DNA of 64,000 nt, from positions 93,088 to 157,087 of the forward strand of contig JAUVXW010000004.1 in NCBI GenBank assembly GCA_030603385.1, read 5' to 3'. The stretch is from Promethearchaeota archaeon. Lineage in GTDB: Archaea > Asgardarchaeota > Lokiarchaeia > Sigyniarchaeales > SOKP01. This document shows, one piece after another, positions 27,467 through 53,037 of this stretch (its first letter is position 1; every line of letters starts with the position of its first letter). Position numbers and translations under genes: made by a program. Below the pieces are notes generated by a model. It did not search any database. It was not told where the DNA came from and saw nothing but the letters and a program-made list of their open reading frames with translations.

Positions 27467-27907
27467 ATAGAGTATAATATGGAGATCATAACCCTATTAC
27501 TAACAGACTGTCGAGATATATACGATTAGATAAAATTCGCAAAAATCTTGAATCTAAATAAGGAACAAGTTTTATTTTTAAATAATATTTTAAGTAATAT
27601 AAAAAAAAATAGTAGTATAGGATATTCGTTAATAAGACTTGATATTTTGGAAGTACAATCGAAAAGAAAATGAGAAATATTATAAGAAAAATTTAAATAT
27701 AGAAATTTTTTTTTTGAGATAAAGCCTATTGTAATCATTTTCTTAGTTTGGAATTTTGTCGTTTATTTTTTTGTATTTTTTTCCCCATAAAATTAAGTAT
27801 GGGCAAAAATCTTTAAATATGTGGAAGATAATTATCTATATAACAAACTCTTGAAAAATAACAAAATTTAATAAAATAATAAAAAATTATTAGTGGAGGA
27901 AAAAAAA

Positions 27908-28186
27908 ATGGCAGGTTCTGAATATATTAGTTGGAGTCCTATTAGGCGCCTTATGAAACTATAATAATCAACTCGATTATTTCTTCAAAATAATGGCGCT
28001 TTAATCGTTGCTCGTGATGCAGTTAACGAGCTCGTTGAATGGATGGGTAGCTCCGCTGAGAAACTTACTAAAAGTGCTTTAACTTTAACTAAACACTCTA
28101 AAAGAAAGAAAATCACGAGCTTCCTTTAGAATTCCTAAAAAAACGTGAAAAATGACATTCTTTTAGCGATTAAATACTTCAAATAA
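27908..28186 (+). CDS. Archaeal histone, 72 aa, three exons (27908-27959, 27990-28119, 28150-28186)
   Basis: Spliced product MAGSEYISWSPIRRLMKHNGALIVARDAVNELVEWMGSSAEKLTKSALTLTKHSKRKKITRNDILLAIKYFK has histone-fold motifs (PIRRLMK; KHSKRKKITRND). GTGGAGG upstream and T-run downstream. Missed by the ORF track because both inserts contain stops. Confidence 0.92.
27960..27989 (+). other. BHB-type mRNA intron 1 of the histone gene (30 nt)
   Basis: Central helix UGAA/UUCA, bulges AC|U and AA|A, exon helix AGGCGCC..UUA/UAA..GGCGCUU. Removal gives AAA CAT AAT. Confidence 0.88.
28120..28149 (+). other. BHB-type mRNA intron 2 of the histone gene (30 nt)
   Basis: Central helix CACG/CGUG, bulges AG|C and AA|A, intron stem UUUAG/CUAAA. 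Removal gives ACG AGA AAT GAC. Confidence 0.88.
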
Positions 28187-28211
28187 GTTAAAGTGAACTT
28201 AAAATTATAAA

Positions 28212-28223
28212 TCTTTTTTTTTT
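28212..28223 (+). terminator. Oligo-T terminator after the histone gene
   Basis: TCTTTTTTTTTT about 25 nt past the stop. Confidence 0.5.
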
Positions 28224-28456
28224 ATTATTATTATTATCTTATCGATAAAATTCAAGTTAAATGTTCCTTTAAAGGCTCTGCATGACAAAACACAGGGCAA
28301 CCATGAGGAAAAGTTTAACAACCATACTTATAGTCTAATTCTCTAATAAAATAGCTTCTTGGATAGGATAAAGAGAGCAGATTGAGTACGTTAGAAACGA
28401 ATCAGAAACACACTTTCAAATGATATACAATAAATAATAGTCTTTTAAAGATAGAC

Positions 28457-28714
28457 TTAATGCTTTTGGAAGCTGGGGGATTTTAGATCAATTATTCGAT
28501 GTTTGCTTGGGTTAAATATCCATTCGTTTTTACATTTTTTAGAACAGAAATAGTGCTTTGGAATTTTTTGAGTGATATTTATAAATACAAATTTATAAGG
28601 CCTATCATAATTACTCTGATACTGTTTTACAGGTTTTCCACACAATTCACAATTTTTTTTCAAGATGATCATACTTTCATTTATTTCTTCTGCGGAATCT
28701 TTAAAAAATTTCAT
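28457..28714 (-). CDS. Small TRASH/zinc-finger-like protein
   Basis: CELCGK...YFCSKKC. Confidence 0.6.
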   Translation of the reverse strand: MKFFKDSAEEINESMIILKKNCELCGKPVKQYQSNYDRPYKFVFINITQKIPKHYFCSKKCKNEWIFNPSKHRIIDLKSPSFQKH

Positions 28715-43004: not shown

Positions 43005-43990
43005 CTATATTAATTGTTCTTTAACCATACTTAAGAATGGATCAATAGGAATGAATGGAGAAACACCAGATAATTCATGATTTTTAATTAAACCCAATGA
43101 GTTAGGATCCATCCCAAATGCAACCCCTAAGAGCTGAGTTATATATATTACAGGAATTTTGAATGGTTCACCAATTATATTTCCATAAATATTATTTACC
43201 TCCACTTGACCTAAATCGAGCTGGAGATGACAGAAGGGGCAACAATTAATTATAATATCAACTCCTACATCTCTCATATTAACTAGTTTTTCTCTAGTAA
43301 AATCAGCTGCGACTTCCTTAACAGCTGTTCTAACAGCTCCACCCGCACCGCAACACATATATTTATCTTTATAATCAATGCTTTTAGCACCAGTAATTTC
43401 GACAATTTCATCAAGAAATCTAGGTGCTTCATATTCACCTTGCCAAGGTCGTTTATCACTTGGTTTTACAATATGGCATCCATAATGAACACCTACTTTT
43501 AAATCTGAAAATTTTAACTTTATATGATCTTTTAAATAATCTAGTCCCATATCAAGATATAGGGCTTGAACAATGTGTTTTGGTTCTAGATTCCCTTTAT
43601 ACTCACGATTAATTTTAGCAAGATGTTTATTAACTTCTTTTTTCAATTCGAACTCATGTTCAAGTTCATACCATGCATCTTTTAGAGTTCCATAACAACC
43701 ATTGCAACCAGTAATGGGATTTACTCCTATTTCTTCTGCAATAGAAATATTTCTAGCAGCAATTACGAGCCAAGTTGGAATATGAAATGCTCTAAAAACA
43801 CCTGGTGCAGGACAGCATGAGGCTCCTGGTAAATCTAAAAGCTCAGCACCAAGGTGATCAAAAACACTTCTAATTGATACTTCAATCATAGGATATCTAT
43901 TGGGGATTTTGTCTAGAATCGATTTGATATCTAGTTTACACAGCCCAAAAAGAATCCATATCTCCACTTATAATCATTAGTTATACTCAT
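43005..43990 (-). CDS. hdrB: Heterodisulfide reductase subunit B, two exons (43990-43936, 43906-43005)
   Basis: Spliced N-terminus MSITNDYKWRYGFFLGCVIPNRYPMIE restores the FLGC..PNRYP motif, followed by CCPAPG, CNGC, HYGCH, CCGAGG and CPFC. Confidence 0.92.
43907..43935 (-). other. Relaxed BHB (BHL-type) mRNA intron in hdrB (29 nt)
   Basis: Intron stem CUAGA/UCUAG, central GUGU/ACAA, bulges AA|A and AA|U, exon helix UUGGG/CCCAA. Removal gives TGT GTA ATC CCC. Confidence 0.85.
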
Positions 43991-52951: not shown

Positions 52952-53037
52952 GCCAGCGTATCCGAGTAGTTTAAGGAGGCGGCCTGCAGAGCCGTTGCTT
53001 TTCAGCATCGTGGGTGCAAATCCCACCGCTGGCTCCA
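52952..53037 (+). tRNA. tRNA-Cys(GCA) with encoded CCA and a long variable arm
   Basis: Acceptor GCCAGCG/CGCTGGC, anticodon stem GCGGC/GCCGT with loop CTGCAGA, T-stem GTGGG/CCCAC, U73 discriminator. Confidence 0.9.

What the first reader, a model, noticed from the sequence alone, without database searches (positions are those of the whole stretch)
27960..27989. Histone intron 1: near-canonical bulge-helix-bulge
5' strand AGGCGCC-UUA-UGAA-[AC|U]-AU-AAUAAUC and 3' strand GAUUAUU-UC-UUCA-[AA|A]-UAA-U-GGCGCUU. This gives a perfect 4-bp central helix, two 3-nt bulges, a GC-rich exon helix and a 7-bp intron stem after two mismatches. Unspliced, TAA TAA stops translation after 18 codons. Splicing builds a His codon across the junction (C|AT). 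The exons are otherwise intact, which argues against decay.
Basis: partly seen in the sequence, partly recalled or inferred. Interest (0 to 1): 0.9.

Follow-up and report, generated by a model that had tools for sequence, protein, structure and literature searches.

The report
tRNA-type mini-intron in Asgard histone gene
A histone gene of a Loki-type Asgard archaeon is broken by a 30-base insert shaped like a tRNA intron, and comparison with relatives indicates it is cut out of the mRNA by the tRNA-splicing enzymes, which the papers I could search document inside only one other archaeal coding gene (cbf5).

Summary
Window 27960-27989 is a 30-nt, stop-bearing insert in a histone-fold gene (27908-28186, +). 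[quoted passage not shown]

Cutting after the second nucleotide of each bulge gives ...LMK-H-NGA.... This is exactly what an intronless paralog in the same genome and many orthologs read.

The strongest evidence is a syntenic locus in a close relative (92-95% identical). It lacks precisely these 30 nt, with no sliding ambiguity, but keeps the gene's second intron (28120-28149).

Related Promethearchaeota carry 30-31-nt inserts of the same architecture at five positions in this histone family. A more distant histone paralog in this genome, uvrB, an AMP-phosphorylase-like gene and a LOR-like gene carry one too. Two EndA genes and RtcB are present.

No RNA data could be obtained, so splicing is inferred, not shown.

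Best reading (0.86): an mRNA intron removed by the tRNA-splicing endonuclease and RtcB. The closest precedent is the crenarchaeal cbf5 intron.

Earlier notes of this scan flagged this same gene and other genes of this genome.

The parts
27836..27852 (+). Upstream block; its core ATATAACAAACTCTT (27838-27852) is shared with the intronless paralog on C10, and the whole upstream region is 95% identical in the syntenic locus L128. It is a likely archaeal promoter region.
   Evidence: Sequence comparison. Promoter function is inferred, not tested.
27895..27899 (+). Shine-Dalgarno-like GGAGG, 8 nt before the ATG.
   Evidence: the same GTGGAGGA motif precedes the C10 paralog and L128.
27908..27959 (+). 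Exon 1 (M1-K17 plus the first base of the His18 codon).
27944..28001 (+). Complete BHB motif of intron 1: exon-exon outer helix, 3' bulge AAA, central helix UGAA/UUCA, 5' bulge ACU, and the intron hairpin.
27960..27989 (+). Intron 1 (30 nt, with TAA TAA in frame). This is the finding.
   Evidence: It is exactly absent from L128.
27990..28119 (+). Exon 2 (last two bases of the His18 codon, N19-T60, plus two bases of the Arg61 codon). It covers loop L1, helix alpha-2 and loop L2 of the histone fold.
   Evidence: Pfam PF00808, E = 0.0018 for this exon alone. The intact ortholog scores 35.2 bits.
28120..28149 (+). Intron 2 (30 nt, with TAG and TAA in frame): central helix CACG/CGUG, bulges AG|C and AA|A, 23-nt hairpin.
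   Evidence: Junction AG|A (Arg) matches KKVTRNDIL of the paralog.
28150..28186 (+). Exon 3 (last base of the Arg61 codon to K72, stop TAA 28184-28186).
28214..28223 (+). Run of ten T, 28 nt after the stop codon; a likely archaeal oligo-T terminator.
   Evidence: Terminator function is inferred.

Best explanation

Proposed mechanism:
1. The gene is transcribed with both of its 30-nt introns.
2. In the pre-mRNA, the last four exon-1 bases before the cut (UGAA) pair with four bases near the 3' end of the intron (UUCA). The flanking exons pair with each other (AGGCGCC-UUA with UAA-U-GGCGCUU), and the rest of the intron forms a hairpin.
3. This presents two 3-nt bulges, four base pairs apart, to the heteromeric tRNA-splicing endonuclease EndA. 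EndA cuts after the second bulge nucleotide on each strand (AC|U and AA|A).
4. RtcB joins the exons, creating the codon CAU (His18).

Only the spliced mRNA encodes the 72-residue histone. The unspliced mRNA stops after 18 codons.

Shown here: the structure, the exact junction, the presence/absence polymorphism, the recurrence of the same architecture at other sites and in other genes, and the presence of the enzymes.

Inferred: the cleavage and ligation themselves.
For: 1. Structure. All elements are present. The region folds with z = -5.4, and the BHB conformer lies within 1.8 kcal/mol of the minimum-energy fold.

2. Junction. The spliced product reads RRLMK-H-NGALIVARD. The own-genome paralog at C10 and orthologs L003-L006 read LMKHNGA without an insert.

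3. Exact indel. L128 is a syntenic locus 92-95% identical in the gene and both intergenic flanks. It reads ...ATGAAAC|ATAATGGCGC..., lacking exactly 27960-27989. The gap cannot slide by even one base, so the DNA-level indel boundaries equal the predicted endonuclease cut sites. L128 still carries intron 2.

4. Recurrence. Inserts of 30 nt (one site has 31-nt forms) with a 4-bp exon/intron helix, 3-nt bulges and a 23-24-nt hairpin occur at five positions of this histone family. They are found in G019, G101 (two genes, two introns each), G150 (another genus, same site as intron 1), G007, G020, G073, G099 and Loki-Castle contigs. At every site, cutting after the second bulge base restores the residues of the intronless homologs. 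The histone paralog on G000:C6 also carries one. Shuffle P per site is 0.001-0.05.

5. Covariation.
- G150 keeps UGAA/UUCA and the bulges, but all seven stem pairs are different Watson-Crick pairs.
- In intron 2, the exon synonymous change ATC to ATT is matched by CGUG to CGUA in the intron.
- All five substitutions seen in intron 1 among G019, G101 and metagenome contigs lie in the loop or the 3' bulge. The chance value is about 0.01.

6. Exon helix. The outer helix is built from synonymous codon choices (AGG CGC ... GGC GCT) in a 31% GC genome. Exon-exon duplex energy is -9.6 to -14.2 kcal/mol in intron bearers, against a median of -1.6 in 74 intronless copies.

7. The genes are alive. dN/dS is 0.04-0.09 against intronless orthologs, 0.04-0.05 between intron-2 bearers (G000 against the Loki-Castle copies) and about 0.14 against G150, all with dS above 1. 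In G101 and G150 the best-scoring member of this histone subfamily is itself interrupted.

8. Machinery. There are two tRNA_int_endo genes (C44, C9) and one RtcB gene (C39). Asgard EndA is reported as the broad-specificity (alpha-beta)2 type (PMC5829648).

9. Other genes of this genome. My own scan found the same 30-nt architecture splitting three other genes. In uvrB, the helicase N-domain lies before the insert and UvrB_inter after it. In an AMP-phosphorylase-like gene, Glycos_trans_3N lies before and Glycos_transf_3 after, and the junction falls in the KHSTGG motif. In a LOR-like gene, the LOR domain begins directly after the insert.
Against: There is no RNA-level evidence: no junction read, no circular intron and no peptide was available.

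Within the small clade that carries intron 1 (G000, G019, G101) there are too few substitutions to show purifying selection (about 7 nonsynonymous to 4 synonymous changes, dN/dS 0.25-0.59, not distinguishable from 1).

This genome has an intronless paralog (C10, 88% identical), so loss of this copy could be tolerated.

The motif is relaxed on the intron side (two mismatches after the 5' bulge). In a naked-RNA model the central helix is populated only about 8-10% of the time.

A crude genome-wide scan gave no clean excess of BHB-like 30-mers.
Confidence: 0.86

Rival explanations
1. The gene is a recently inactivated histone paralog (a pseudogene). A small hairpin-forming element inserted twice, and the copy is no longer expressed as protein because the intronless paralog on C10 covers the function.
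For: An intronless paralog exists in the same genome. dN/dS within the intron-1 clade is not significantly below 1. No RNA or peptide evidence is available.
Against: The insert boundaries coincide to the base with canonical BHB cut sites, and the four intron bases before the 3' bulge are complementary to the site-specific exon sequence. The same holds at five positions of this histone family and in a more distant histone paralog.

The exon helix is built from synonymous codons. All intron substitutions avoid the stems.

Intron-2 bearers have diverged to dS of about 2 with dN/dS of 0.04-0.05.

In G101 both genes of this subfamily carry two introns each.

The same inserts split uvrB, for which earlier notes of this scan report a single copy; I did not count copies myself.

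The Shine-Dalgarno site and the upstream region are conserved.
Confidence: 0.08
2. The insert is skipped by the ribosome rather than removed from the RNA. This would be programmed translational bypassing, as in phage T4 gene 60 or the mitochondrial byp elements: take-off before the stop codon and landing 30 nt downstream.
For: A stop codon follows closely after the insertion point, a hairpin lies inside the gap, and the gap is short and in frame.
Against: Bypassing needs matching take-off and landing codons, and none exists. The His codon CAU is not present in the unspliced RNA. Landing on the only downstream AAA (27987-89) resumes in a frame that meets UAA within five codons (read).

Related inserts of 31 nt (the intron-2-site insert in L133 and the G099 insert at the K|RKK site) change the frame in exactly the way the BHB cuts predict.

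Bypassing does not explain the exon-intron 4-bp helix or the two 3-nt bulges.
Confidence: 0.02
3. The insert is an assembly artefact, or a DNA element excised at the DNA level in some cells, so that the functional gene is the intronless DNA form.
For: Contigs of runs X1 and X2 (kind not on record) contain both insert-bearing and insert-free histone sequences.
Against: The insert is present in three independent species-level assemblies (G000, G019, G101) and in contigs of public runs (records 5 and 12).

The insert-free contigs differ elsewhere in sequence, so they are relatives, not excision products.

The insert has no terminal direct or inverted repeats.
Confidence: 0.02

Closest known systems
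BHB intron in the cbf5 (pseudouridine synthase) pre-mRNA of Crenarchaeota (Watanabe 2002; Yoshinari 2006; Yokobori 2009, PMC2738675)
   Same: Both are short BHB introns inside a protein-coding sequence of an archaeon with a hetero-oligomeric splicing endonuclease. Both show gain and loss among related lineages. The sizes are similar (36 bp in Staphylothermus cbf5, per PMC2738675).
   Different: The phylum differs (Asgard/Promethearchaeota rather than Crenarchaeota), and so does the gene (a histone). Here there are two introns in a 219-nt coding sequence, and five intron positions across the orthologs and paralogs of this subfamily. The size is nearly constant at 30 nt. The same organism also carries such inserts in other genes. 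Splicing of cbf5 was shown experimentally; here it is inferred.
Archaeal tRNA and rRNA BHB introns, including the heavily interrupted tRNA genes of Asgard archaea (bioRxiv 10.64898/2026.10.13.758758)
   Same: The motif (two 3-nt bulges, 4-bp helix), the predicted enzymes (EndA, RtcB) and the picture of repeated gains at sites where the exon context lets the motif form are the same.
   Different: The host RNA is an mRNA. Half of the motif must therefore be built from codons, here through synonymous codon choice, and the cut must preserve the reading frame.
Unconventional HAC1/XBP1 mRNA splicing in eukaryotes (Ire1 endonuclease; ligation by Trl1 in yeast or RtcB in animals)
   Same: It is spliceosome-independent: a small intron is excised from a coding mRNA by an endonuclease that recognises RNA structure, and the exons are then joined by a tRNA ligase.
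   Different: The endonuclease and the recognition motif differ. That system is stress-regulated. There is no evidence here for regulation.
Translational bypass elements (T4 gene 60; mitochondrial byps)
   Same: Both are short, stop-containing, hairpin-forming inserts in otherwise intact coding sequences.
   Different: There are no matching take-off and landing codons. The junction codon exists only after RNA joining. Bypassing was considered as a rival and rejected.

Membership tests
Archaeal BHB intron (EndA substrate) | [quoted passage not shown] | tested here: met
   UGAA/UUCA lies between ACU (5' strand) and AAA (3' strand). The 3' bulge is canonical. The 5' bulge is followed by two mismatches, so this is a relaxed form.
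Archaeal BHB intron (EndA substrate) | Flanking helices: an exon-exon helix outside and an intron helix inside. | tested here: met
   The outer helix has 3 + 7 bp with one unpaired U. The inner stem has 7 bp after two mismatches.
Archaeal BHB intron (EndA substrate) | Symmetric cuts within the bulges give the functional mature RNA. | tested here: met
   Cuts at AC|U and AA|A give CAU (His) and the frame of the intronless homologs. The DNA indel in L128 has exactly these boundaries.
Archaeal BHB intron (EndA substrate) | The host encodes the splicing endonuclease and the RtcB ligase. | tested here: met
   Two PF01974 genes (99 and 71 bits) and one PF01139 gene (558 bits) are present.
Archaeal BHB intron (EndA substrate) | The intron is actually excised from the transcript (spliced junction, free or circular intron). 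| not testable with these tools
   No RNA run holding this locus was listed. The one read-laying run gave only contigs of unknown kind.
Archaeal BHB intron (EndA substrate) | The structure is maintained by compensatory change among homologs. | tested here: met
   In G150 the intron at the same site has seven different Watson-Crick stem pairs. All five substitutions in close relatives fall at unpaired positions. Exon and intron covary in intron 2 (C-G to U-A). Whether the G150 intron is homologous to intron 1 is not proven.
Archaeal histone (HMf-type, Pfam PF00808) | The sequence matches the histone-fold profile over helix alpha-1, loop L1, helix alpha-2, loop L2 and helix alpha-3, without insertions. 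| tested here: met
   Exon 2 alone scores 19 bits, below the 21.4-bit cut-off. The intronless ortholog L003, 96% identical to the spliced product, scores 35.2 bits over profile positions 6-65.
Translational bypass element (gene 60 / byp) | Identical take-off and landing codons flank the gap. | tested here: not met
   No matching in-frame codon pair exists. The codon CAU is absent from the unspliced sequence.
Any curated RNA family (Rfam 15) | A match above the gathering score. | tested here: not met
   The only hit in 27600-28500 is a chance sub-threshold potC match (22.5 against 44 bits) on the opposite strand.

The most novel reading that the evidence does not exclude
Lokiarchaeial genomes harbour a turning-over population of tRNA-type mini-introns of about 30 nt. 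These enter protein-coding genes and are precisely lost from them, and histone genes are a hot spot. If so, endonuclease-plus-ligase splicing of mRNA is a routine and obligatory step of gene expression in close archaeal relatives of eukaryotes. Precise losses such as that in L128 would imply recombination with copies of spliced mRNA.
Probability: 0.5. Interest if true: 0.9.

Novelty: new variant of a known kind. Interest (0 to 1): 0.8.

Why it matters
Interrupted protein-coding genes are regarded as a eukaryotic hallmark. In archaea, the papers I could search document splicing inside a coding sequence for cbf5 only.

Here a 219-nt histone gene carries two introns, relatives carry introns at three further positions, and other genes of the same genome carry the same 30-nt architecture. 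If this is confirmed at the RNA level, three things follow:
- mRNA splicing by the tRNA machinery would be common in Asgard archaea.
- Intron gain and loss could be studied on a short time scale, because a locus only about 5% diverged differs by exactly one intron.
- Standard gene callers would be shown to truncate or miss real genes in these genomes. Public records already list 62-63-residue fragments ending in ...KKITSF(L), which is the read-through into intron 2.

Tried and rejected
RNA evidence:
- No RNA holder was listed for 27700-28400.
- The single read-laying run put two contig sets of unknown kind (X1, X2) and two small cold-seep metatranscriptomes (X5, X6) on the locus. X5 and X6 laid nothing. 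X1 and X2 hold both insert-bearing contigs and insert-free relatives, including a loose end that leaves the reference exactly at 27959 and continues with exon-2-like sequence. Their kind is unknown, so this is not evidence of splicing.

Spliced-junction searches:
- An exact-pattern scan of metagenome contigs for the spliced intron-2 junction found one unrelated chance match.
- A protein search with exon 2 found no product identical to the spliced G000 protein; the best hit was 93% identical.

Genome-wide scans for BHB-like inserts that restore long ORFs:
- They are dominated by adjacent-gene false positives and gave no clean peak at 30 nt: 24 candidates at 30 nt against 8-11 at 29 and 31 nt, but 20 at 32 nt.
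- Of eight 30-nt candidates checked by domain architecture, three were supported (uvrB, AMP-phosphorylase-like, LOR-like). Four looked like neighbouring genes. One, a gene with FAD-binding and 4Fe-4S domains, stayed unclear.

Other checks:
- The intron has no other copy in the genome.
- A pattern hit in G147 at the intron-1 site was not a histone.
- MAFFT broke the register of the four-sequence alignment, so pair counts were made in fixed register by script instead.
- The 56-residue database proteins starting at MKHNGA are start-codon miscalls, not a further intron.
- The sigma-70 promoter scan does not apply to archaea.

Full report
What is there.

The window is AT-rich (about 31% GC). It belongs to a 3.9-Mb, 58-contig genome. 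Close relatives of this genome are titled Promethearchaeota or Promethearchaeia (Loki-type Asgard) MAGs.

At 27908-28186 on the + strand lies a gene with a GGAGG Shine-Dalgarno site 8 nt before the ATG. Read straight through, it gives MAGSEYISWSPIRRLMKL, then two TAA stops. It continues in the same frame as NGALIVARD...KRKKITSFL, meets TAG and TAA, and ends NDILLAIKYFK.

Removing 27960-27989 and 28120-28149 (30 nt each) gives a 72-residue protein. An intronless ortholog 96% identical to it matches the archaeal histone family PF00808 above the cut-off. Exon 2 alone scores E = 0.0018.

The observation.

- central helix UGAA (27954-57) with UUCA (27984-87)
- 5' bulge ACU (27958-60) and 3' bulge AAA (27988-90)
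- outer helix AGGCGCC-UUA with UAA-U-GGCGCUU
- after two mismatches, a 7-bp stem with loop AACUC

The region folds far better than shuffles (z = -5.4). The minimum-energy fold leaves the central helix open. The full BHB conformer is only 1.8 kcal/mol higher.

Is the junction right?

The same genome has an uninterrupted paralog (C10:17175-17378, 88% identical). It reads ...RRLMKHNGAV... and ...KKVTRNDIL..., which are exactly the residues created by cutting at AC|U / AA|A in intron 1 and AG|C / AA|A in intron 2. Orthologs L003-L006 in sister species read MKHNGA without an insert.

The most telling comparison is L128, a contig from a public assembly. It is syntenic and 92-95% identical through the upstream intergenic region, the gene and the downstream region. 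It reads ...AGGCGCCTTATGAAAC|ATAATGGCGC.... So it lacks exactly the 30 nt 27960-27989 while keeping intron 2. The gap cannot be moved by a single base, so the boundaries of a natural DNA indel coincide with the two predicted endonuclease cut sites.

Recurrence.

I searched 135 genomes of the family and 154 of the order and fetched the interrupted hits. Database fragments added further loci. Inserts of the same build occur as follows:
- intron-1 site: G019 and G101:C6 (near-identical to ours), and G150 in another genus
- intron-2 site: G019, G101:C6, L128, G007, and two Loki-Castle contigs, where the insert is 31 nt
- after ...NGA(L/V): G073, G101:C12, G099
- between K55 and R56: G101:C12, and G099, where the insert is 31 nt
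- between D63 and I64: G020
- in the more distant histone paralog on G000:C6

All have the same parts: four exon bases pairing with four intron bases, a 3-nt bulge on each strand, and a 23-24-nt hairpin. In every case, cutting after the second bulge base regenerates the residues of the intronless homologs. This includes the two sites with 31-nt inserts, where the insert shifts the frame by one.

A composition-matched shuffle produces such a motif in any frame-restoring register with P = 0.001-0.05 per site. For six independent positions the joint value is about 1e-12.

Signs of selection on the RNA structure.

- The G150 intron keeps UGAA/UUCA and both bulges, but its seven stem pairs are all different Watson-Crick pairs (register checked).
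- In intron 2, the Ile codon ATC of G000 (helix CACG/CGUG) is ATT in the Loki-Castle copies and GTT in G007. In both of those cases the intron reads CGUA instead of CGUG.
- The five substitutions seen in intron 1 among G019, G101 and metagenome contigs fall in the loop or the 3' bulge, never in a stem.
- The GC-rich outer helix is made of synonymous codon choices that most intronless copies do not use. Exon-exon duplex energy is -9.6 to -14.2 kcal/mol in intron bearers, against a median of -1.6 in 74 intronless copies.
- Five intronless copies do share the helix. This fits either precise loss or a pre-adapted site.

Is the gene alive?

Against intronless orthologs, dS exceeds 1 while dN is 0.07-0.10, giving a ratio of 0.04-0.09. 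Between intron-2 bearers that have diverged to dS of about 2, the ratio is 0.04-0.05. Against the G150 gene it is about 0.14.

Within the young intron-1 clade there are too few changes to test this, and this is a real gap in the evidence.

In G101 both genes of this subfamily carry two introns each. In G150 the best-scoring member is the interrupted one.

Machinery and context.

The genome encodes two tRNA_int_endo proteins and RtcB. This fits the report that Asgard archaea have the broad-specificity (alpha-beta)2 endonuclease (PMC5829648), the type earlier linked to archaeal pre-mRNA splicing.

My own scan for 30-nt BHB inserts that restore long ORFs recovered three further genes:
- uvrB, where the junction falls in YYDYYQPE|AY, with helicase domains before and UvrB_inter after
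- an AMP-phosphorylase-like gene, where the junction falls in the KHSTGG motif, with Glycos_trans_3N before and Glycos_transf_3 after
- a LOR-like gene

The 29-nt insert in hdrB in this window (43907-43935, minus strand) likewise restores FLGCVIPNRYP, with a weaker helix.

Rivals.

- A pseudogene with hairpin insertions does not explain the base-exact match to BHB geometry at many sites, the site-specific exon-intron complementarity, or the strong purifying selection in long-diverged intron bearers.
- Ribosomal bypassing fails for lack of matching take-off and landing codons, and because the His codon does not exist before joining.
- An assembly artefact is excluded by three independent assemblies and by public contigs.

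What is missing.

No RNA evidence could be obtained, so excision is inferred.

Comparison with the known.

The closest precedent is the cbf5 intron of Crenarchaeota (PMC2738675). A recent preprint describes very intron-rich tRNA genes in Asgard archaea, and its only use of 'protein-coding' refers to neighbouring genes used as synteny anchors. My three literature searches found no report of BHB introns in Asgard protein genes.

Earlier notes of this scan had already flagged this same gene and several other genes of this genome. I re-derived the cases I cite.

Noticed in passing
window 28120-28149 (+): Intron 2 of the same gene has central helix CACG/CGUG and bulges AG|C and AA|A. It sits inside a 9-bp distal exon-exon helix (CUAAAAGAA with UUCUUUUAG). 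G007 has two compensatory changes in that helix (CCAAGAGAA with UUCUCUUGG). In G019 the intron side of the central helix has mutated to AGUG, which leaves 3 of 4 pairs.
   Followed up: partly
window 43907-43935 (-): A 29-nt insert near the start of hdrB. Removing it restores ...FLGCVIPNRYPMIEV.... The central helix has only three Watson-Crick pairs plus a G-A mismatch, and the bulges are AA|A and AA|U.
   Followed up: partly
G000:C6:about 1290-1320 (own genome, outside the window): A second histone paralog carries a 30-nt BHB insert (helix GAAG/CUUU, bulges AA|U and AU|A). It restores RHAGRK-K-LTLGDMDL.
   Followed up: partly
G000:C4:251907-251936; C10:126771-126800; C55:17369-17398: The same 30-nt BHB architecture splits uvrB, an AMP-phosphorylase-like gene (inside the KHSTGG motif) and a LOR-like gene. 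Domain order across each junction is continuous.
   Followed up: partly
all histone-family introns examined (loci L001, L002, L008, L019, L111-L115, L133): The 3' bulge is AAA or AAG in 12 of the 15 inserts examined (11 of 12 in histone genes). The insert length is almost always exactly 30 nt (1 + 23-nt hairpin + 4 + 2). Neither feature is part of the textbook BHB definition. They may reflect an enzyme preference or the mode of insertion.
   Followed up: no
L060, L061, L064, L083, L091 (intronless histone genes of relatives): These intronless copies carry the same exon context as the intron-1 site (AGGCGCCTTATGAAAC|ATAAYGGYGC). This is either a footprint of precise intron loss or a site already able to host the intron.
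   Followed up: partly
L112 and L113 (G101:C12 and G101:C6): One genome (99% complete) has two genes of this histone subfamily, each with two introns, at four different positions. No uninterrupted copy of the subfamily appeared among the listed matches.
   Followed up: partly
proteins P0003, P0011, P0091 (public databases): Gene callers have deposited 62-63-residue histone fragments ending in ...KKITSF(L). This is the read-through into intron 2. One of them comes from the original Loki-Castle metagenome (LCGC14_1046730).
   Followed up: yes
window 52952-53037 (+): The only tRNA called in the 64 kb is a tRNA-Cys of 86 nt. That is longer than a standard tRNA, so it may itself contain an intron.
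   Followed up: no
G000:C10:119015-119044: A 30-nt BHB-like candidate in a gene with FAD-binding and 4Fe-4S domains, just after ...LDRTFPTDD. The predicted junction does not give a recognisable motif, so the boundaries may be wrong or the candidate may be false.
   Followed up: partly
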